DNA from: Camelus ferus | Taxonomy: Eukaryota | Assembly (NCBI RefSeq): GCF_009834535.1 | Contig: NC_045696.1 | Span: 7,380,001-7,444,000, forward strand | Direction: 5' to 3' | DNA: 64,000 nucleotides | Translations under genes and position numbers: made by a program | Shown: positions 15,943 through 39,361 of the stretch, in pieces | Layout of the letters: the number at the start of each line of letters is the position of its first letter | Numbering within the stretch: position 1 is the stretch's first letter | Notes under the pieces: model-generated | What the model was told of the DNA's origin: nothing | Seen by the model: only the letters and a program-made list of their open reading frames with translations | Database searches by the model: none

Positions 15943-16391
15943 TAAAAAATACTACTGGAATTAAAATATTTATCAAGGTTGCAGGATACAAGGTCGGTAT
16001 ACAAAAATTATATTTCTCTGTGCCAGCAATACACTAGTTTTTTTAGATAATGAAGTTTTAAAATAGCATTTCCCGTAGCATCAAAATACATAGAATACTT
16101 AGGATACATTTAATGAAAGATATGAAAGACCAGACTGAAAACGAAACATTGATGAGAGAAATTAAAAATGATCCAAATTAATGGAGAGATATATCCTATT
16201 TAGGAATTGGAAGAATCAACATTGTTCAGGTATTTATTCTTCCAAAATTGATCCACAGATTCAATGCAATCTGAAAACCCCCAGCAGGCTTTATGTAGAG
16301 AGTGACGATCTACTTCTAAATTGTATTTGGAAATGCAAAAAACCTAGAAGAGCCGAAGTTATTCTGAAAAAGGAAAAATGCTGATGCTGGA

Positions 16392-16752
16392 CTGTATTCA
16401 TTTGCAAGGGCTGCCACAGCAAAATGTCACATGCTGGCTGACTTACACAAGAATTCATTCTCTCACAGTTCTGGGAGCTGGAAGTCCCAGGTCCCAGATC
16501 AAGGTGTCTGTAGGTTTGGGTTCTCCTGAGGTCTCCCCGTCTCGTTGGCTTGCAAACAGCTGCCTTCTCACTGTGCCCTCATGGGATCTCTGGTGTCGCT
16601 TCCTTTTCTTATGAGGACACCACCTTATTGGATTAGGGTTCTGCCCTTATGGTCTCATTTAACCTTAATTACCTATTTAAAGGCTCTACTTTGAAGTATA
16701 ATCACATGGGGGTTAAGGCCTCGGAATGTGGGGTGACACAAATCAGGCTATA
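16392..16752. mobile_element. MaLR solo LTR (MLT1-type)
   Basis: tgtattcatttgcaagggctgcc start; ctcacagttctgg, ttggattaggg, catttaaccttaattacc motifs. Confidence 0.8.
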
Positions 16753-19700
16753 ATGTGGCATCTCACCCCTAAAGAAGAAGATTTACTTGGTCTGGGGATC
16801 CTGGTCATAGGATGCTTCCAGGGACTCTCGTTGAGTAGAACATGGTTAAGAACTACTGAGGTTTCCACCTGTGGATGAGCTGAGTCCACAGGCTCTCCTG
16901 GGCCCTGCAAACTCCGACTGAGTGATGGCTTCAACCGGACACCCTGAAGGATACTCTGAAACAAGTCTGGGACAGGAAAGGGTTCTGTTTCAGACACTTT
17001 CCCCACCTTGCACGGTCCTGGGATCAGCTGTGTAATATACTAATGGCTCCGAGCGATGCTCACTAAATGAAGCCATTAGCCAGGCATTAAATTCACATCT
17101 GCTCCTCTCCAAGATTCTGACTCTTTCCACTAGACCCTGGTGATCCTCAGGCTGTGAGGAAACAAGGCGGGAAAAGGGGAGGGAGCAGTTCTGTATTATT
17201 TAGCCCCAAAGTCTAGATGTTAGCGGGGTTTCCTCATGTTACGTTCCTGTGTTTGGACGCTGCCGTCCCGGGGATTGCACCAGCCGAGCGATGGTGAGCC
17301 AGCACCATGTCAGAGGGTTTGACAGCCAGAACCTTGGAGCCTACAGCCAATCTAACACATACGTGAGATTTAAAAATAACCCAGTCAATTTCTCCTCTCA
17401 TGGCTTCCTTAGGATTGTAGAGACTATTTTTAGAATTGGTGTGGTGACAACTGGCAGGAGGCACAGGAGTTTCCAGCTTTTGCATTTATCACCTTTATCG
17501 GGGCTCAGGCTCTGCAGGGCTGTGGTCCTGCCCCCAGTATATTTCACATCACAGGGCAGTGGTTCCCAGGCCCTCCCTCCTGCCCCTCCCCGATCCTGTC
17601 CCGCAGCCTGTGGCTCCTGAGCCTGGCTCTGCCCCCTCAGACCCGCAAACTCATGGTGGCTCCCGTTCTGACAGCCTAAGGAGGAAGGGCAAGGCTTGCT
17701 GAGAATGCACGAGAAAGTCGGGCAGGGCAAGCCACCGAGCCCCAGGGCCAGCCCGCCGGGCCCCAGCCTTGCCCCTCCCGGCTCACGGTGGACATGGGAT
17801 TGCCATATTAGGGGCTCTGTGGGCTCCCCGTTCGCGGGGCCTGGCCCCCAGGCTGGCAGAGCCTCAGGGCTCCGGTTCAGAGCAGCAGACAAGCTGCAGA
17901 TTCCATTCTGCACAGTCATTTTCCTCTCCTCTCCTCCCTGCCCTATGGGGCCCTTTCCTGCAAACGGAGGCCCCCGCCAGCTGCCCTGTCAAGGAGCCCA
18001 AGGCTCGAATATCCTGGCCCCGCCTCTGGGGCGGCCCAGCCAGGCGGCCCTGACATGCAGGAGCGTCCGGGGACAGGAAAAGCCAGCCCCTTTCAGAGTG
18101 TGGCATGGGAGGAAGGGCATTAGGATATAAGAGGGTTTGATATCAGAACTTAAATCTAAAATCTTTTGACCATTCGAGAAAAAAAATCACAGAAATATAT
18201 AGGAAACTAGTCTCTTGTCTTTGAAGTGAGAACAGAAACTCACTTCATTTATTCATTGTGTTTCTGCGATCACTTCTCACTATCTTCTAAGCAGAAGCCC
18301 CTGTCAGGGCTGCGGGGAAGACCGAGGTGCCTGAGGTGTGGGCAGAACTTCTGGGACCTCTGAGTCACACAAGATTAAGTTGAATCCTTTTATTTTGCCC
18401 TGCCCTGTCAAAACCCAAATTTCCTCCAATAATAAATAAACTAGCCAGTTCCACGGGGTTTCTGTTCCTATATCAGCCTTTGCTCCAGGTTTCAGCTGCT
18501 TTGTTCCACACCTCACTGACTCATGACTCTCCTCCTCAATCTGTTCCTCCCACAAAACCATGACTCACACAGATTTGTACCTGCAACAGGTTTCATTAAG
18601 AAGCAGGAGGGCCGAGGAGGCATCTGTAGTACGGAAATGCAGACAACTTCAAATGGTGTGTAGGACATCCTGTTATTTAAATGCTCTCCAGGATTTTCAG
18701 GTCTGGTCAGAACCGAAGAACAGTTCAGGGACTTACTCCCTTCCAATAAAATATAAAATGGACAAATATGAAGCAACTGCTTTCGGACTTTGGGCAAAAA
18801 CCATTATAGGACTATGATGGTCCCCAAGGAAAGTGAAACATGATGTGCGTGGACATTCACCGTGGCTTTCTGCTTGGGGACACTTTCCATCCGGTGGCAC
18901 AGGGAAGGGACCCGACAGCGGCCTGGCTCTCATGGGGCACAGGTAAAAGAGGTGGGAGGTCAGGGCTGCCGAGGAGGCTGGAATCCGCAGGGCAGGCTAC
19001 AAACGAGGGCACAGACTGCACAGAGGGGCCCCAGGAATTGACACGGAAGTTCCCTGGAGCCTGAGCCAAACACGAAGCTGTGTGTGTGGGACAGGCCTCC
19101 ATGGGGCCTGGCAAAGAAGTGCTCCCGGGGGGGCTGTGAGATGGAGATTGGAAATCATACACGATGCTGGAGGCCCCTGGAGTCCCGCCCAGCTGGAGCG
19201 GAGAGACCTTGCCTAAAGTCCTGGTCGTTAGTTGTGACCTGAGAAAGGACAGCCCTCATTAGTGGGGCTCCTCCAGCACCAGGGCAAGGGTGCTCTAAAC
19301 CTCCCCCGACTAAGATTACTAACAAGGCTGGGAAGTTAAGAGCGCTCAGCAAATTAACCGCCTTTCAGAATAAAACTGCACATTCTTTAAGGGAAGACAA
19401 CCAAATACAGACTGTCGGCAATGGAGCAGCCACAGTATCCAGTATATAATCCAAGGGAGCGAGGGTTTAGTGGGTACAGTTTCAGATTGAGAGGATGGAA
19501 AAACTGGCTGTGAGTCTGTCTATTGAGCAGCTACTATGGGCAAGCACACTCACTTAATCCTCGCGGTAAGAACGTGGAAATTGAAGCTCCAAGAGGTTAA
19601 ATAAGTTGCCAAAGCCACACCACTGAGATGCAGGCAGTGTGGCGGGATGAGAGGGGAGCTTCGGGTGTCTGCCCGCGGTGGGAGCACTGGGAGGGCGCTG

Positions 19701-20179
19701 GGTGCTGCAGGCCAGGGGCTGGGTGGGGCAGGTCCAGGTGCGGGACATGAAGTGAGAATGACACTGATGACCTCGGGTGGAGGGTGGCAGTGAGTGATGG
19801 GGCTCTGGCCCAAGATATGTGGGCCCACCAGTGTCCCCATAGCCCTGGAGGGCAGACCCAGTGAAGCTGGGTCTCTGGGGCCTGACTGGGCCCAGAATTC
19901 CAAGTGACTAGAGGGAGGTGGGAGTGGGGCCGGGTGTGGAGGGTGGAAGCAAAGGCTGTTAGGAGGCTGATGGAATACTGCTGATTGTATCAGAAATGCC
20001 CCCTGCTCGGCCTGTGGCCAGTCCCCTGTGACCTGAGCCCATGTGTAGAACTAACATTTAACAAGGGGTCACCCTCATGCCGTGAACTGCCTCCACATCG
20101 GCTGGTCTCAGGCCCAAGCCCCAACCCCTCATCTGGGTGTCCTGTCCCTGCAGGACAGTCCCACCTCTGCACAGTCCCC

Positions 20180-20590
20180 CAGAGCAATGGGTGACCTTGG
20201 CCTCCTGCTCTCCTTAAACACCAGCAGGGCCCTCCTTGGCAGGCTCTGTTCCTGCTGTCCGTCTGCCGGGACTCCCACCCTCCTCCCCTTCCTCCACAGC
20301 TCCGCTTCATCTCCTCCAGGGCTGCACTCAAATTTACCCCGGCCTCTGCCTGAAAACGTGACTCCTCTCCCATACACACTGCCTCATCCCCATCCAGCCA
20401 CATCTTTCTCCAGGTTATCAGACATACCAGGTATCTACTTCCACAGCTGATGCTGGGCTCCCCACTGGAACGTCGAGGACCTAAGGACAGGCCCCTCCTC
20501 TCTTCCGTCCCCTGTTCTAACTCCGGCATCAAGAACATTGCCCGCACTTGCTAGACAGGACAGAGAGGTTTGACGCGTGAATGGATGGAC
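20180..20590 (+). mobile_element. L2 3' fragment
   Basis: Pyrimidine-rich L2-like text ending gtgaatggatgga. Confidence 0.5.
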
Positions 20591-21659
20591 AGCCCATCAA
20601 AATGTCAGGGCCACACGGCTCACTCCCAGGGAGTACCGCCAGGATGCGCGGGGGCTCCCTGGGAGAAGGGAAGGGGTGACGAGGCCCCTGACCCCAGGAG
20701 AGGTCCACAGTGGGGACGAGGAGGAGACAGGCTCAGCAGTCTCATACAGGCCCAGGAAACAGGGTTCAGCGGCCACGTCTCTCACAGGGAAGGGTTGTAG
20801 CAAGTGTTATGCCTCAGCTTCCAAACGTCTGGCCAATTTAGAGGATGTGTGGTAGTTTTGAAACTGGAAGCAAAAGCACTGTGGCCCCCAGTGAGGCCCC
20901 AGTAAAAGCCGGAGTCCCACTGGCGCTGGGGCCGCACCAGTGTCTGGAAGCACAATGCCGGCCTGTTCAGTTGCTTGCTTTCTCCGGGGGCTGCTGGCTG
21001 GCCCACTGGCATGGCCTGGCACTTCAGGACACAGAGCTTGGAGCTGGTGGCAGGGAGATCTAAATTAAGACCTTTCTACCACACCAAATAAACAGAAGCT
21101 GAAATAGAGGGCTGAAGGAATTGGGCAAAATGCCTTTACACATAATTTTTGAAAAATGGAGGGAAAAGAGTTGGAAAACAGAATGGTATTCATTCGAATC
21201 CCACGGTATTTGCTGAAAACAATGACACCTCTGTTTGACACAAAAGCACATGTTAGAAAGAGCAAGCCTGTCTCTTTGAAGTGTCCTGCCCCAGATGCCT
21301 GGGTAATAAATACCAACTGCTCTGTGGAGAAGGCTCTCCTGCCAAGGCCAAGGGCTGGCCCAGTTTCAAGCCCCGGCCTCCCTCCAGGAGGTAAGATGAG
21401 TCAGCTGCTTCTGGCTTGGAGTCGCCCTCATGGGTGTTTCTTGTTTGGCAGCCCTGAAGCACACCTGCTTTGGACTTACCTGCACGTTCCCGAGGCAGGG
21501 CCTCAGCAGAGACAAGGGCGCCTTTCTTGGTTCTCCGCAGAGGAAGACCTCAGCGGGGCGGGCGTGATGGGTGAGCAGAGTTGCAGTGGGCTCCGGGCCT
21601 GCTCCTCCTACAGACAAGACTCCTGCCCTCACAGATTCTGAGCAGGAGAGGGGGTGGGG

Positions 21660-22030
21660 GGTTGGGCTTATATGTAGCGTTTGCTGATTTCTGTGGTATA
21701 AATACTCCCACCACAGCCAGTTTCAAGCCACGTATGTGACACCTATGTAATTTTATGTGACACCATTGAACAGAACTGGGAAGAGATACAGAGAATCCCA
21801 TTACACAGTATTTCCACCATACAGACACTATGCATCTGACCTGCAGAAGTATGGATGATAATAAACTGTAGTAATTGGGAAGTAATTGCCTTTTTTAAAA
21901 AATACAATTTATTTGTAAGCTTATATAATTCAATTTTTAATAGTAGTTGTGTTTAACAGCCAGCTCGAAAAAGTCCTGAAATTGAAACAACTGGCTCTTG
22001 TTACTGTGGCCAGTTTGATGCAGACTCCCA
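21660..22030. mobile_element. hAT DNA transposon relic (MER63-like)
   Basis: tttgctgatttctgtggtataaatactcccacc and gtgtttaacagccagctcgaaaaagtcctgaaa motifs. Confidence 0.65.
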
Positions 22031-28465: not shown

Positions 28466-28540
28466 CTACTCTTCTGACAGGAGATCACGGTCCAGGCAGG
28501 CCGGGCAAGTACTCTGCCCCTTAAGCCACTGCTTGAAGCA
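28466..28540 (-). CDS. TTC3: TTC3 last coding exon, CFKQWLKGQSTCPACLDRDLLSEE*
   Basis: tttcag acceptor; completes the RING-H2 (C..W....CPxC); TAG at 28466-28468. Confidence 0.94.
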   Translation of the reverse strand, partial: CFKQWLKGQSTCPACLDRDLLSEE

Positions 28541-29641
28541 CTGAAACGGAGAGAACGCCATCAGTCAATGCCTTTGGGAGCACGTGGCACCTTAGTTCCC
28601 CTCCCTCTCCGCTGCAGACATGGCTGGTGGGGCCTGGAGCTGCCCAGCACTCAGGGACACCAGAGCCTGCTCAGGTGAGGAGTGTGGACCAAGCCCCAGG
28701 GACAAATCTCACCTCAGAACGTGACCATGACTACTTGGGGCACGGCCTCACCTTCCCCTTCCCCTCACTCCGTTCCAGCCTCAGCACTCAGCTGCCCTGG
28801 CTTCTCTATAGAGGCTGGCACCTTCTTTGTCCTTGGGCTCGTCTGCCTTCTCCTTGCCCCCACAACCTGGACACCACACAGCCCTGACTGGAGCCTGTCT
28901 ACGCAGTGTGCTCCCTAGCTGCCCCTGGCTGGCCGGCTGCTGCTACAGAGCCGAGTGTGTGTGCAAAGTCGGAGAGCCCGGGAAGGACGCCGGTACACGG
29001 GAAGGGGGCAGGCCCCGCGAGAGACTGTAGGCCGTCTTGACACCGTCCAGGGAGTGTACAGTGTGTCCTCCTTTTCTCAGGGGTTCATAAACTGACAGGG
29101 CAGAGACCTGACCTGCCCTAACCCAACAGCAGGGGTGCAGGACGCATGCTCACAGCACCCAAGACACCAAAACAGTTAACACAAATCCTGGAAGGGTACA
29201 AACCAGAATCTCCCAGAATCGGGCAAAATGGACCCAGTTAGGCTTAGTTTTTCTCTTCTAAAATGTTACACTGACTTCACATACTTAACTAAATTAACAA
29301 ACTGTGGCACTATATATTTGTTCGGCCATGTGTGTAAGAAATCAACTTTTAAGGAACTAATATTGCTTTGAATTTCAGCACCAACAGCGCTGATGGAGCC
29401 AACTGCTCTTTTCCACCCATGACACTGAGTGGAGGAGAGGCCAGTGCGCAGGGTGCACACCAAGGGGCCAGGAATCTGCTCCCCTCCACAGCACCGACCT
29501 CTGGAAGGGCAGACAATGATCACTTATAAAGAAAATGCTTTGAAAACGCAGTATTGAAGCCTAGGGAAAAAGCCCTCAGCATTTTCAAAACACCCCAGTC
29601 ACAATGCACGACATGACGAGGGCCAAGAGAGAAGTCCTCAC

Positions 29642-29734
29642 CCCTTTGTGACACTTGTGCCCACATTCCAGCACACGCACGTTTTTGGATTTGAATACTT
29701 CGTGGCATATTTCACAGGAATTTGCACCGGACAC
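29642..29734 (-). CDS. TTC3: TTC3 RING-H2 exon 1 (93 nt, phase 0-0), VSGANSCEICHEVFKSKNVRVLECGHKCHKG
   Basis: ccacag acceptor, gtgagg donor; CxxC...CxHxxH motif. Confidence 0.94.
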
Positions 29735-32661
29735 CTGTGGAAATAAATATCCCGATAATAAAGAGTAACTAAACTTCTTTCTACTACGTGAGCTCTTCTA
29801 AAAGTGGCTTTCAAACACTTTTGCAGCTAAGGTGGCAAATATTTCCAATTATAACTAAGCAGACTTTTTAATAACATTTCTTAGGGAAAAAAATAGTTTT
29901 AATTTTCTCAGAGAAAAAAGTTTTATATGGTTAATATGTTTCCAGTTAAAACACTACGAATACTCACTTATCCCATCCCATTCCTTACAAAGCATGGTAC
30001 CACCTGAACATTACAAGTTAGATAAGTAACAGCTGGGGACAGTAACACAGATGATGACACGTCTACACTATGGATCATCACGGGGCTGATTAAAATCACG
30101 ATGGAGATCCATAATCCCTGACACAGAACACTGGTTACAAAAGCTCTCTGAATAAAAGTAGTTTACAAACAGCATCATGTGCTTATATAACTCAATTTTT
30201 TAAAAATAAAAAAAATGTGTATATAGAGAGGCCTAGAAAAGCATCTGGAAAGATGTAAAATGTTAACAGTGGTTACTGGCTCCTTTTGGTTGACAGATTT
30301 AACTTTTTTCTTTGCTGTTTTTCTAAAGTTTCTGTGAATGTGGATTACTTGTACAAATCAAAACAAAACAAACTGATGGCTCATTCAGCAAACATCCAGC
30401 GTCAGGGATTGCGCGGGGCGCGGGGTGAACGGCAGGGCTTCCGGCCCCGGCAGCTCACAGTCTGGTGAGCACAGACGGCGCTTTCTGTGTGAAGCAGAAG
30501 CGGACCAGGCACAAAGTCCTCCCTACCGCTCACAGCGCTTGCCCCAGGCTACCCGCATCACCGACTTCGACTCTCACTCCCCTGTAACTCTCAGCACCCT
30601 GGAGGCAGGGAATGAGCCTTGTTTATTATATGTGTCCTTAGCAGCTGGCAAGGAACCTGGCTCCAAACTGATGTGCATAGACTGTCAAACGAATGAATGA
30701 ATGCAGCCCTCACACTGGATTAAGGTCAGGGAGGAGAGCTAGGGGAGGTGCCTGAAGGCTCTGAAGACCCTGAACTGCTGAATGGGGTTTTCTGTCCAGC
30801 TTTCTGTCCTTCCCAGGGCACTGCCGCTGCTTGGGCAGCGATGGGGCAGATGTGGTGGCATGAGGTGCTCTCATCCCTCTCTGCAGCCCCCGATGGAAGC
30901 GTCTGGGAAGAAATGAAGGCGTCAGCCCTGGGGAAGGGCAGGTTAAGGCCTCTGCAAAGTTCGGGAAAACCCAGTTAACTTGATTATTTCCTAGCCTGGA
31001 AGATAGGCACAATATATATTTAAGTTAAAAAAAGGGGGGGGGATACAAATACATGTACAATGTTGACTAAATTCACACATACACACACATACAAAAGAGT
31101 TTAAAAAATGTATTCCAGTGAGATGATACTGGTTACTGGTTACCCTCAGAGGGTGGGTTTTGGGGTCCTTTATATGGTTTTTTTATTTGTATACTCTATT
31201 ATGAACCATATTACTTTTGTATTTAAAAAATATAAAGAAAATTACTTTTAATTTTTAAAAAACTTACTATGATTAGCAAATTAATACATAGCTTTGGATA
31301 CCTGTTTTACTTATAAGTCAGGTTTTACACCCTTATTACTATCAACATCAGCTGCGAAGCAGAAATGGATCTCTCCTTGAAAGATGATTATGGCCTATCT
31401 CGGGGCGCCCCGCCACACACACTGAGGAGCCATACACATGAACACCCACACACCAGCGGGAATCCTGAGAGGTCGGCCCAGTTGCTGGACCACAGAGCAC
31501 GTGACCAGCAGGGACACGTCTGAGGGAGGAAGGGACTCCAGCCGGGCCTTGCAGGAAACGTCCGAGAGGGATAAAAACAGAGTTCACAAGAAGAGTCAAT
31601 GCCTAGCTCCAGTCAGCAAACCAGCGCTCCGTGTGCAGTCCTGCACTGCTGGCTCTGCCATGGAGCCTGCCGCTCTTCTACAGTTGATTTCACCTAAACT
31701 CTGACACTATAGTTGGACAAAAGGGGAAAAACATTCTCTGCACCAGAATTCAACTTGGAGCCCATGGCCCTGAGCCACCCAGGTGACGGCCTCTCTTTCA
31801 ACCACATGTTCAGTCCCCACTGCATGGTCTCCAGCAGGAGCTGGTCAGTGTGGCGAGGACGGGGAATTACACGCTGCACACTCAACTCAAATGAAGGAAC
31901 ACTGGCAAGATGCATCAGTCAGTCATCCATGCCTTGGTTTCCTCATTTATAACATAAAGGCAATTATAATGCCTTATCAACTGAGAACATAAATATAATA
32001 ATCTTTTATAAAAAGTTCTATGTTAATGTAACATTCTTGTCTAAAAGGACAATATACTTACATCAGTATATCAAATTAAAGGCAAATCTAGCTGATTCCA
32101 CTGTGCCCCCCCACAGCCGTTCCCCAGACACCTGAGGGGAGAGGAAAGGAAAGCATCCAGCCTTTCCCAGGCACAGCGCCTGGCCCTGGCAGCCCTGCCG
32201 CTGGGCTTCATCCAGGCAACAACCTGAACAAGCAGGTATGAGCCGAGCTCACGGTGTTATTAAGTGATGGCCAAGTCTGCATGATTCTAAAGCCCATGGT
32301 CACACAGAAGAAAATTATCCAAAAACCAGTTTTCCCAGCTATTCACACTTGGTATAAAATATGAAAGTACCTGACCACTGACAGGCCCAGTGCCTACAGT
32401 GTGGTCACAGCTCTTCTTGTCACTGTGTGCAAGGGCTCCGAGGCGTTCGCCCAAGTGGAGGGACAGCCTCGCCATTCAGCCTCGCCTGTTTAACCAAACT
32501 ACACCTAACTCTCCATCTACACTTGGTCTCTAATTTTGAGATCAAATAAATTCGGTCTAGAAATGCAAAGAATGGGGCTTAGTCACGGATTAACAATTTG
32601 TTTCCTTCTTGTTCTTCATTAAAAGAACAACCAACGCTGCAATCCTGCGCACAACACTCAC

Positions 32662-32797
32662 ACGGGACACCTTCCGTCTCCTGCCCCCGGGTCTGGGGTG
32701 ACGCTCCAGCAGCCGGGGAGGGCGGGTCCTGGGTGGCCGTGGTCACAGAAGCAGCAGAGCAGAGCTCAGATGGCTGCTTGTCCTTTCCTGGATTTGG
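32662..32797 (-). CDS. TTC3: TTC3 pre-RING coding exon, PNPGKDKQPSELCSAASVTTATQDPPSPAAGASPQTRGQETEGVP; 3' boundary uncertain (32662 or 32653), both out of phase with the next exon
   Basis: ctgcag acceptor, phase 0; donor gtgagt gives 136 nt, donor gtgcgc gives 145 nt. Confidence 0.85.
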
Positions 32798-32978
32798 CTG
32801 CAGTGAGAATGTGGGACAGGGAAGCAAGTTCAGTTATCTCAAAACTTGACCATCTTCCATCTACTACTAAATTGTTCTCCACCTTTTGGCTGGAAGCATT
32901 TTTTTTCATAATTCTCATATTTTATAAATAAGTAAGGATAAAGTAAAACATTTTATTGAATCTAAATGAAATACTGAC

Positions 32979-33105
32979 CTTTTTCTTCTTCTCTTCATCT
33001 AGAATGTGTTCTGCCACTCTTTGGACAATTTCGTCAATACTCAATCCAGAGAGCGAGTTCTTGTTTTTGTTTCTCACTTTTTTAATAAAACCAGCAAGCT
33101 CAGTG
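32979..33105 (-). CDS. TTC3: TTC3 coding exon (127 nt, phase 2-0), TELAGFIKKVRNKNKNSLSGLSIDEIVQRVAEHILDEEKKKK
   Basis: ttttag acceptor, gtcagt donor; conserved helical segment of TTC3. Confidence 0.94.
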
Positions 33106-34668
33106 CTAAAAGGGAAAAGGGGATAACGTCATGAGAAAGTCAAAGTTTTCTACTGCAAATAAATATGAATAAACATTATGTGCCAGTATTAACCCAACAG
33201 CTAGAAGCAACGAGGTCAAATACAAATAACCACACAAATAATTCATTTGTAAACGACAGCATAACTGTATATAAAACTGAGGTCACTCTTCCAAAGTATT
33301 ATGAAAATTCCAGTATTATTTCTAAACATTTGTTTTAATAGACTTTCAAAGTAATAGTGTATCTGCTAGATCCATCTGAGATGTCCACCCCGGCTTAGAA
33401 ACCGTACTTCTTACGGCCGGGACACACTGTAGCTTCAAGCAACATTACTGAGTGATCAGATACCATTGGTTCTGACTTGAAATCAGTAATAAGTCTCTAA
33501 GAACAAACTAGCTTTGTTAACTTCCTCCCTTTAAAAACCAAGTCTTCAAAGCCTGGCTGTTCTGTCAGTGCCCGTGGATGTGATCTGCATCACAGGGACT
33601 TGATATTTACAGCACTAATACCTCAAATGCTTTACTTTTCAGAAAATAGAATGCATTTCTATTTGGTGGTTTATATTCAGCCAAATTTAGTCAGGATTGC
33701 AAACAATTTTATTTGTAAGATATCTTTGGTAATCACAACTTGGCTATTTTTTAAGAACTGGCATGGTAACTGCTCTTGAGATAACTTACGTTTCTCAAAC
33801 GCAGGCAGGGCTAAATACGCCCGTGTGCGGACAAGATATACTTATTTCCATGTGGGCAGGGCTCCACTGACAAATGTAAAACGTTAATTTTGTAAATCAT
33901 AATTTAAGCATGATTTTGTTTCAAAAGGATAATTTCAAAGCCTGTGACTAATACTGTATCCAAGACAGAAATAACACGGGAGGTGCAGAGGGTCATTCCT
34001 GCATGTGGATTCCTCTCTTCTGAGCTGCATCCCAGAGACATCCCCTCCACTTCATCTGCTCTCCTGCAGAGACAAGGGCACCCCTGCCCCTCATACCAAT
34101 CTGGAGAGTTAGGTCAACGGTCAAGGCAGAAGCACCACTGAAGTGTCCGACTGATACAGGCGACTAAGTTAAAAGCAGCTCTCCCCACCCTTATTGGGAC
34201 CGTTCTGTAACATGCTCACACACTTGGTTCACTATCAAATTCTATCCACCTTTTCAACCTCAGACCTCTAACAGCTCAGAGGTACTGTCCACAAGATGTA
34301 AGCTGCTGCTGCCTTCTTTGCTATATGTGATGTTTTTCCCTTGAAACGACACAAAACTAATGTTTTGCAATTCATTTAGTGATTCTGTAACTAGTGTTGG
34401 AGCACCTTACTGAGCTCCTCAAAATCTTAGCAAATTGCCGTGGGTTCTGATGTGTGTTGATTAACCAGTGTTCAATGTTTTCAATCTTTGAAAATGCTCA
34501 CCTCCGTGTTCACAAAAAGGAAAAAAAAAACGTAGCTCTTGTCTTTCTCAGTAAAACAATTATACAGTCCTTTCCACTCCTGCCCCTAATTGGCCATAAT
34601 GTTATCCGATCAGGAATCCTCAGTTCAACAAAGTATTCAGCAGAGGCACAGACATTTTAGATTCGTAC

Positions 34669-37621: not shown

Positions 37622-39361
37622 CTGAGAAAGAAAAATATGAAACTGCTAATGTCCACATAACATTCTTTTTAACTGAAAGCACTAATGTACAAAAGAAAAT
37701 AAATATTTAAACATGAAAGAAACACGATCACAAAAAAAAACCCAACTATTTTTAAAGAACTGTGTATCTTACAAAGTCACCATCAGAGACATCAGGAAAT
37801 TTTAATTACTGATCTGACCAAACCCCGAGAACTTATGGGCAGAAAGCAAATATTCTTCTGAATTTTAATTCCTTTCCCCAAATTTGTAGATTTGACCATT
37901 CTTCATTTGACATTTTCAAGTTTAACATCAAAGGCTATCTTGGCATGGAAAAACAAACAAAAAGGCAGCTTGGAAACATTCCAATAAACATTCTTCCCCA
38001 CCTTATTGTAAAAGAAAGGGTAGGGCCTGACAGGCGATTTAGATTTCTCAGCCCCTCATCCATCTGGTCTATCAACAGTGACGTACAAGTACTCCTAACT
38101 GAGAGGATCAGTAACACCAGCAGCAGGTGACAGTGTGGGTTCTCATCACACACCTTACAGGAACACCAGAACACTGCTTCTGCGGCTGTTCTCTTCACTA
38201 TCCTCTGGGAGAACGAGCAGAATTAGCACAGAATCCCTAAGAAGGGAGCATGAGGCTTCATTAGGAAGCCAGTGCTGTTTGACAGAAAGAAGTCTGAGAT
38301 GTGCTCGTCTCCCAGCTGCACCGCAGGGCACAGCTTATGCTGGGCTGAAAACTGACCACCACCACGAGGTCCCAGCCTCTGCTGTACTGGTCCTGTAATC
38401 TGAGTCAGCACATCAGTCTACTTTTAATCAGAATGGTTTTCTCTAATGGAAAAAACTTAACCTTGGAAAATGAAGAATTATACTAAAACTGTTTTTCCTT
38501 GTCCCACAGAATCTCTGGTTCCACACTGAGGGTTTGAAATTTAGATAAAAAAGTACGAGGAATTAAAACTCAAAACCTGTGTGTGGAATATGATAAAAAG
38601 GCCAGATGAAAGGTGATGCCAGGAGCAAAAATCCACAGTGATGAGACTGACTGCTGATGCCAGACTGCAGGAGGCCCTCTAGGAGTCCCAGGTAAGCCTT
38701 ATCCCAAAACCAACACAAAACAAACAGAAACAGGTGAAGATTATGGAGAGCTGAAAAAAATGACCATGTTTATGTATCTTTTGAAGTGACGGTCCGGTAC
38801 ACTACCAGTAAGACTGCTAAGTAACTGTTCTTAAGGCAACTGTTTAAAAAGCTTTAAAAATGTGATCTTCATTCCAGAAAAGTATTGAATGGAAATGATT
38901 AATAATATGCATAAAAATTTAGCTACAAGGGTATCTGCTACAGTGTAGCTTTTATTAACAAAATTTGTGAATAACCCAACTCTTCCACCTCAGTGGTGTT
39001 TAATAGATCACGACACATTTGTACACTGGAACACGAGTCAGCCTTTCCAAATTAGGTTGGAGAAATGTAATTATTGATAGGAAAGGAAGATTTCTATATA
39101 CTACTTTGTGAAAAACTATATATAAATTTTTGTCAAATTAATTAACAGATTTAGTGCAAAAATATTAACTATAGTTCAATTTAGAGTTATGGATGATTTT
39201 TATCATTTTTGTTTATATGTTTCGATTTTTCTGATTGAACATGCATTAGCCGTATTAACTATCAAAAAATAAAATGGTCCTAATGTAAGTTTTTCTCAAA
39301 TCAGCCTTAACCTCTATTCACTCAAAGACGTGCTGGGAAGACACCTGTGGCACCACAATAC

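What the first reader, a model, noticed from the sequence alone, without database searches (positions are those of the whole stretch)
32647..32670. Apparent +1 frameshift uncouples the TTC3 RING domain
Seen: the exon starts in phase 0 at 32797 and reads ...GGT GTC CCG T|gtgagt gtt|gtgcgc. The strong donor gives 136 nt and the downstream one 145 nt, both 3n+1, while the RING exon (29734) needs phase 0. Splicing as written gives TGT GTC CGG TGC AAA TTC CTG TGA, a stop before any zinc ligand. Removing one base at 32662/32663 makes both donors in frame (135 or 144 nt; I recall a 48-codon exon in human). The only in-frame GT nearby is a poor GGT|gtcccg at 129 nt. Every other junction in the window is in phase. 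Inference: either a 1-nt consensus error or a real allele giving RING-less or NMD-targeted TTC3. Read-through into the intron would end in CECCAQDCSVGCSFNEEQEGNKLLIRD* at 32579.
Basis: partly seen in the sequence, partly recalled or inferred. Interest (0 to 1): 0.7.

Follow-up and report, generated by a model that had tools for sequence, protein, structure and literature searches.

The report
One-base surplus breaks camel TTC3 frame
In this two-humped-camel genome the exon just before the catalytic RING finger of the ubiquitin ligase gene TTC3 is one base too long, which cuts off the RING on paper, but other camel gene models lack the extra base, so it is most likely a sequence-assembly slip and not biology.

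Summary
TTC3 lies on the minus strand. The exon at 32797-32662 is 136 nt and starts in phase 0. The RING exon at 29734 needs phase 0. Splicing as written gives ...GVPCVRCKFL and a stop at 29714-29712, before any zinc ligand.

This is exactly the C-terminus of all 4 listed RefSeq Camelus ferus TTC3 models, which lack the RING in Pfam. The other 14 of 18 camelid models examined reach the RING in frame:
- C. bactrianus: 4 models
- RefSeq dromedary: 3
- alpaca: 4
- GenBank dromedary: 2, which skip the exon
- an older C. ferus model from another assembly: 1

No GT/GC-AG pair on the window gives either in-frame camelid reading. Dropping one C (32664-32666) gives the old C. ferus reading (Arg). Dropping G 32663 or T 32662 gives the C. 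bactrianus reading (Pro). The window is therefore one indel away from two different in-frame alleles. That pattern fits a consensus or haplotype-mixing artefact (about 0.6) better than a real truncating allele (about 0.3).

Interest is low.

The parts
32979..33119 (-). TTC3 exon before the one in question (...STELAGFIKKVRNKNKNSLSGLSIDEIVQRVAEHILDEEKKKK). It ends in phase 0 at 32979, followed by donor gtcagt.
32662..32797 (-). TTC3 exon X, 136 nt, phase 0 at its start. It encodes PNPGKDKQPSELCSAASVTTATQDPPSPAAGASPQTRGQETEGVP plus one surplus base.
32662..32666 (-). CCCGT, the five bases that hold the surplus base. Removing any one of them makes the exon 135 nt and in frame: a C gives Arg, the G or the T gives Pro.
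32656..32661 (-). Strong donor gtgagt, matching GTRAGT at 6 of 6 positions. It gives the 136-nt exon. The C-terminus of the RefSeq C. ferus models is the reading this donor gives when joined to acceptor 29734.
32647..32652 (-). Second donor gtgcgc, 9 nt downstream. It gives a 145-nt exon, also out of frame.
   Evidence: three-residue isoform differences in other mammals
32663..32668 (-). Weak in-frame donor gtcccg after GGT (129-nt exon). It would give ...ETEG|VSGANS.
29642..29734 (-). First RING exon (VSGANSCEICHEVFKSKNVRVLECGHKCHKG). It needs phase 0, is intact, and is identical in translation to C. bactrianus (31 of 31 residues).
29712..29714 (-). Premature TGA reached in the shifted frame. 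It lies 70 nt before the last exon junction at 29642.
   Evidence: product seen
28466..28540 (-). Second RING exon and normal stop (CFKQWLKGQSTCPACLDRDLLSEE, TAG at 28468-28466). It is intact.
32579..32581 (-). Stop that ends the intron read-through frame (...NKLLIRD*).

Best explanation
The extra base at the 3' end of TTC3 exon X (within CCCGT, 32666-32662) is most likely a one-base error of the assembly consensus. It probably arose where two in-frame haplotypes, or two SNP alleles, were merged; the animal need not carry it. The real gene would then have a 135-nt exon, splice from ...|gtgagt to 29734 in phase 0, and make a normal RING-H2 E3 ligase. The truncated RefSeq C. ferus models would be a faithful translation of the erroneous base.

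Shown: the surplus base, its consequence, its absence from the other camelid models, and its position one indel away from two different in-frame readings. Inferred: that the cause is consensus error.
For: 1. Of 18 camelid TTC3 models examined, only the 4 RefSeq C. ferus models carry the shifted ending GVPCVRCKFL*. They sit on a 122,453,268-base contig. The other 14 enter the RING exon in frame. One of these is an older C. ferus model from a different, 5,462,438-base scaffold, which reads GVR|VSGANS.

2. One search tested every GT/GC donor against every AG acceptor on the window as it stands. None gives EGVP|VSGANS or EGVR|VSGANS. Deleting one C (32664-32666) gives the old C. ferus reading. Deleting G 32663 or T 32662 gives the C. 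bactrianus/dromedary reading. If the Pro codon is CCT, the window (CC-CG-T) holds both alleles of a C/G difference (CCT / CGT) in tandem. If it is CCG, the window is a mix of the two haplotypes. Either is a plausible way for consensus and polishing to go wrong at a heterozygous site; I hold this from general knowledge, not from any call. The listing abstracts of PMC8812927, PMC12007338 and 10.1101/2021.07.16.452324 support only that long-read assemblies keep residual homopolymer-length and frameshifting errors.

3. Nothing else in the gene is damaged. The C. ferus model equals the C. bactrianus model at residues 1-1932. Both RING exons in the window are intact and identical in translation to C. 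bactrianus.

4. The RING is conserved: 106 of 120 mammalian cluster representatives keep the full C3H2C3 motif. A review calls it the critical element for E3 function and states that homozygous TTC3 knockout is lethal (PMC9239942, passages). That makes a homozygous truncation in a living animal unlikely.

5. The window is gap-free over 64 kb across long simple repeats. This is weak support for a long-read-based consensus.
Against: No read was seen.

The site is only a 3-base C run, not a long homopolymer. Isolated indels in unique sequence are usually removed by short-read polishing.

I have no call that says how this assembly was sequenced or polished; the paper I looked for is not held.

The DNA of the in-frame alleles was inferred from protein models only. 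The same 'one indel from both' pattern would also be seen if the window were a real evolutionary intermediate.
Confidence: 0.62

Rival explanations
1. The extra base is a real one-base insertion carried by the sequenced animal, heterozygous or polymorphic in wild two-humped camels. Transcripts spliced at gtgagt to 29734 would then end at TGA 29714-29712. They would either be degraded by nonsense-mediated decay or make a TTC3 with all TPR and helical domains but no RING, so no E3 activity. Only exon skipping or a poor donor could bypass the break.
For: The base stands in a chromosome-scale assembly. It is taken at face value in 4 of 4 listed RefSeq C. ferus models, none labelled low quality.

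The rest of the gene is intact, as expected for a young allele.

The premature stop lies 70 nt before the last junction, beyond the 50-55-nt rule for decay (the rule is established knowledge; the coordinates come).

Skipping the exon keeps the frame, because the exons on either side end and start in phase 0. Two GenBank dromedary models do exactly this, so some RING-bearing product could remain. A one-base slip in a C run is also a common real mutation.
Against: It is absent from 14 of 14 other camelid models, including another C. ferus assembly.

The RING is conserved in 106 of 120 representatives. A review says homozygous knockout is lethal (passages).

The in-frame donors that use acceptor 29734 are all poor: TCT|GTGACC, GGT|GTCCCG and AGC|GTTGGT.

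On general grounds (my own estimate, no call), coding indel errors in draft assemblies outnumber true private frameshifts in conserved genes.
Confidence: 0.3
2. The frameshift is fixed in wild two-humped camels, meaning a species-level loss of the TTC3 RING.
For: Only that all 4 listed RefSeq C. ferus models are truncated. These all derive from one genome sequence and are not independent.
Against: An older C. ferus model from a different scaffold-level assembly reads through in frame (GVR|VSGANS). One search shows this reading cannot be obtained from the window's sequence. There is no secondary decay of the RING exons.
Confidence: 0.03
3. The 136-nt exon is real and the frame is restored by an unusual mechanism, such as a non-GT donor, an alternative acceptor or recoding.
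For: None found.
Against: Shifting the acceptor one base later or two bases earlier would not place it after an AG: the bases around 29734 are a c a g | G. The exhaustive GT/GC-AG search found no pair that gives the camelid in-frame peptides. The RefSeq models accept the truncation.
Confidence: 0.02

Closest known systems
RefSeq Camelus ferus TTC3 models (XP_006187537.2 and others; P0122, P0125, P0126, P0129)
   Same: They have the identical C-terminus ...GQETEGVPCVRCKFL*, exactly the reading the window gives with donor 32662 and acceptor 29734. They match the window's exons elsewhere and have no RING in Pfam.
   Different: Nothing differs. They are most likely translations of the same allele, so they are not independent support.
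In-frame camelid TTC3 (C. bactrianus XP_045373748.1 = P0003; dromedary P0128; alpaca P0121)
   Same: P0003 is identical to the C. ferus model at residues 1-1932. It has the same exon X peptide, and its RING exons are identical in translation to the window's.
   Different: They read GVP|VSGANS (alpaca GVP|ASGANS) and carry zf-RING_2 at 1937-1978. This requires a 135-nt exon, one base shorter than in the window.
Frameshifts introduced by assembly consensus or polishing errors
   Same: A single surplus base next to a short homopolymer. It is confined to one assembly, sits in an otherwise intact conserved gene, and is one indel away from two in-frame alleles.
   Different: This is not shown with reads, and the C run is only three bases long. 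The general phenomenon rests on listing abstracts only and on my own knowledge.
Human TTC3, a RING-type E3 ligase in the Down syndrome critical region
   Same: The same domain order (TPR, TTC3/DZIP3, winged helix, helical domains, C-terminal RING) in Pfam. The RING is described as the critical element for E3 activity (PMC9239942, passages).
   Different: The camelid RING reads ECGHKCHKG where most mammals have KCGHK[FY]HKG. Camelid and other artiodactyl proteins end at ...LLSEE, without the longer primate tail.

Membership tests
TTC3 orthologue (E3 ubiquitin-protein ligase TTC3) | TTC3-specific domains (PF24525, PF19179, PF24812, PF24905) plus TPR repeats | tested here: met
   Pfam scan of the C. 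ferus and C. bactrianus models whose exons map to the window. The large exon 58507-59631 hits TTC3 of 120 listed mammalian clusters at E down to 1.8e-231.
TTC3 orthologue (E3 ubiquitin-protein ligase TTC3) | C-terminal RING-H2 (C3H2C3) encoded in frame with the rest of the protein | tested here: not met
   The RING exons are present and intact (29734-29642, 28540-28469) but cannot be reached in frame from the 136-nt exon. PF13639 is absent from P0126 and present in P0003.
TTC3 orthologue (E3 ubiquitin-protein ligase TTC3) | Single-copy locus, not a retrocopy or second copy | tested here: met
   In the window's own genome, all 24 scored matches to P0003 lie in one locus on C1, exon by exon. Exon X DNA matches once. 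The search used a stricter first look, so weak copies could be missed.
Assembly consensus indel artefact | The base is absent from the raw reads of the assembled individual | not testable with these tools
Assembly consensus indel artefact | The change is confined to one assembly, and close relatives and other assemblies of the species are in frame | tested here: met
   14 of 18 camelid models are in frame at the RING exon, including an older C. ferus model. Only the 4 RefSeq C. ferus models are shifted. This is protein-level evidence only.
Nonsense-mediated-decay target | Premature stop more than 50-55 nt upstream of the last exon-exon junction | tested here: met
   TGA at 29714-29712, last junction at 29642, so 70 nt. 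The rule itself is established knowledge. Whether decay occurs was not tested.

The most novel reading that the evidence does not exclude
The 136-nt exon is a real allele still segregating in wild two-humped camels, and it is the uncompensated intermediate of a compensated frameshift. An insertion at the exon's last position broke the frame. A nearby loss of one C restored it and changed the last codon from Pro to Arg, which is the reading of the older C. ferus model. A critically endangered species would then carry both a RING-less TTC3 allele and its repaired descendant.
Probability: 0.08. Interest if true: 0.45.

Novelty: not a real feature. Interest (0 to 1): 0.13.

Why it matters
If it is an artefact, the value is practical. 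The public C. ferus TTC3 models that end ...GVPCVRCKFL are then wrong. They would mislead comparative screens for gene loss or desert adaptation in camels, and the site is a concrete case for re-polishing.

If it is real, an endangered wild camel carries an allele that removes the catalytic domain of a conserved E3 ligase which a review describes as essential when fully knocked out. That would be of some interest for genetic-load studies, but it would be an ordinary kind of loss-of-function variant.

Tried and rejected
Nothing was laid, so the shares of words are no evidence on the base.
- Short ORF proteins from public contigs that would show either allele. A search with the 84-aa ORF 32579-32833 found no candidate at 46-147 aa. 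At 148-2000 aa it found only the two known camel clusters.
- Host contigs in metagenomes. A DNA pattern covering all candidate alleles had 0 matches. A protein-based scan matched 596 pattern stretches, none of them a relative. One search failed because the query was too short.
- Retrocopy or alternative haplotig in the window's own genome that would preserve the ancestral junction: none found.
- Earlier notes of this scan: none.
- Literature on camel TTC3. A search for 'TTC3' plus 'camel' found 36 papers, of which 12 were listed. None was about this site, judging by title and abstract.
- The paper on the chromosome-level wild camel assembly is not held. Passages in four other papers gave no sequencing or polishing details.
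- Alternative splice routes. 82 theoretical in-frame GT/GC-AG pairs exist. With the normal acceptor, only poor GT donors at 51, 129 and 162 nt are in frame. I rejected these as the main route.

Full report
**What is there.** The window carries the 3' half of TTC3 on the minus strand. The 374-aa open exon 58507-59631 hits TTC3 of 120 listed mammalian protein clusters. The best hits are Camelus at 97-99% identity.

tblastn of the camelid models places their exons in order from 63769 down to 28469. The window's exon translations have no internal mismatch to either the C. ferus or the C. bactrianus RefSeq models. Dromedary and alpaca show several substitutions. The window therefore comes from a two-humped camel.

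- The upstream exon ends ...AAG AAA AAG|gtcagt at 32979, in phase 0.
- Exon X runs from 32797 (CCA AAT CCA...) to 32662 (...GGT GTC CCG T), followed by gtgagt. It is 136 nt.
- A second donor, gtgcgc, lies 9 nt further on and gives 145 nt.
- The RING exon begins at 29734 (GTG TCC GGT GCA AAT TCC TGT GAA ATA TGC...) and needs phase 0.
- Joined as written, the frame reads C V R C K F L and stops at TGA 29714-29712. That is before the first Cys of the RING and 70 nt before the last junction at 29642.
- Intron read-through ends at 32581-32579.
- The second RING exon and the normal stop (28540-28466) are intact.

**The shifted reading is already in public gene models.** I examined eighteen camelid TTC3 models from three protein clusters:
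- All 4 listed RefSeq C. ferus models end ...GQETEGVPCVRCKFL, exactly the shifted reading.
- The 4 C. bactrianus and 3 RefSeq dromedary models read GVP|VSGANSCEIC... The 4 alpaca models read GVP|ASGANS...
- The 2 GenBank dromedary models skip exon X and join ...EEKKKK|VSGANS.
- An older GenBank C. ferus model, on a 5.46-Mb scaffold where the RefSeq models sit on a 122-Mb contig, reads GVR|VSGANS.

The C. ferus RefSeq model X1 equals C. bactrianus X4 at all of residues 1-1932 and differs only in the seven shifted residues. Pfam finds zf-RING_2 at 1937-1978 of the C. bactrianus protein and no RING in the C. ferus model. All other domains are the same.

**Where the surplus base sits.** A script tried every GT or GC donor in and after exon X against every AG acceptor before the RING exon.
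- On the window as it stands, no pair gives EGVP|VSGANS or EGVR|VSGANS.
- Removing one C of 32664-32666 gives GTCCGT|GTGAGT and the Arg reading of the older C. ferus model.
- Removing G 32663 or T 32662 gives GTCCCT| or GTCCCG|GTGAGT and the Pro reading of C. bactrianus and dromedary.

The window is thus exactly one indel away from two different in-frame alleles. If the Pro codon is CCT, the two alleles differ by one substitution (CCT/CGT) and the window (CCGT) holds both letters in tandem. If it is CCG, the two alleles differ by a pair of offsetting indels and the window takes one from each. A consensus or polishing step working on a heterozygous site can plausibly produce either pattern; that is my own general knowledge, not a call. 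The abstracts listed say only that long-read assemblies keep residual homopolymer-length and frameshifting errors. The same pattern could in principle be a real intermediate.

**Could splicing rescue the frame?**
- With the normal acceptor, the only in-frame GT donors are TCT|GTGACC (51 nt), GGT|GTCCCG (129 nt) and AGC|GTTGGT (162 nt). All are far from GTRAGT.
- No AG lies one base later or two bases earlier than 29734.
- Skipping exon X keeps the frame, as the two GenBank dromedary models show. Among the 79 of 135 stored proteins that carry the anchor EH[IV]LDE, only those 2 skip it.
- The two tandem donors 9 nt apart seem to be used in other mammals. Isoform pairs differ by three residues at this junction, for example ...DDVS|APDANS against ...DDVSVNP|APDANS. 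In the window both donors are out of frame.

**Conservation and function.** 106 of 120 mammalian cluster representatives keep the full C3H2C3 motif in their last 120 residues. The 14 that do not include low-quality, partial or intron-reading models. A review places the human RING at 1957-1997, calls it the critical element of the E3 activity, and states that homozygous TTC3 knockout is lethal (PMC9239942, passages only).

**What could not be done.**
- Twenty-four coded public runs were listed. No read and no RNA junction was seen.
- Searches for short ORF proteins and for host contigs in metagenomes gave nothing.
- Searches for a retrocopy or haplotig in the window's own genome, for earlier notes and for papers on camel TTC3 also gave nothing.
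- I have no call on how the assembly was sequenced. The window is gap-free over 64 kb across long simple repeats.

**Verdict.** The frameshift is really in the sequence and really uncouples the RING on paper. It is confined to one genome sequence among the camelid models and sits in an otherwise untouched, conserved gene, at a spot where it looks like a blend of two in-frame alleles.
- Consensus artefact: about 0.62.
- Real, non-fixed truncating allele: about 0.30. Such transcripts would be predicted targets of nonsense-mediated decay or would yield RING-less TTC3, with exon skipping as the only good bypass.
- Species-wide loss: about 0.03.
- Unusual rescue mechanisms: about 0.02.

In either of the first two cases it is an ordinary kind of event. 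Its main use is as a flag on the public C. ferus TTC3 models.

Noticed in passing
window 29642-29734 (-): The camelid RING reads VLECGHKCHKGC where most other mammals have VLKCGHK[FY]HKGC. There is an extra Cys between the two His ligands, plus a Lys-to-Glu change. All Camelus and alpaca models share this, and some phyllostomid-type bat models also have CGHKCHKGC.
   Followed up: no
window 32647-32661 (-): Two tandem donors lie 9 nt apart (gtgagt, gtgcgc). Protein isoform pairs in rodents, primates and carnivores differ by three residues at this junction, so both donors are probably used across mammals.
   Followed up: partly
P0002, P0135 (GenBank dromedary models): Both skip exon X entirely and join ...EEKKKK to VSGANS in frame. 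RefSeq dromedary models include the exon.
   Followed up: partly
P0121, P0131-P0133 (alpaca): Alpaca exon X starts PNPNPGKDK. It has one extra Pro-Asn unit compared with Camelus, and its RING exon starts with Ala where Camelus has Val.
   Followed up: no
P0052, P0072, P0073 and others: 14 of 120 mammalian TTC3 cluster representatives lack the full RING-H2 motif. One bat model reads into the intron after exon X, and a tree-shrew model skips the first RING exon. RING-less TTC3 models are therefore not rare among draft annotations.
   Followed up: partly
window 16000-22000: A G+C-rich stretch (0.47-0.51, against 0.32-0.43 around it) with many long open frames on both strands, downstream of the TTC3 3' end. 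It may be a CpG island or another transcription unit.
   Followed up: no
window 38158-38238 and 29588-29641 (-): The older C. ferus GenBank model includes an extra 27-aa exon at 38238-38158 and reads into the intron after the first RING exon (...CHKGVRTSLLALVMSCIVTGVF*). These look like ab initio prediction artefacts.
   Followed up: no
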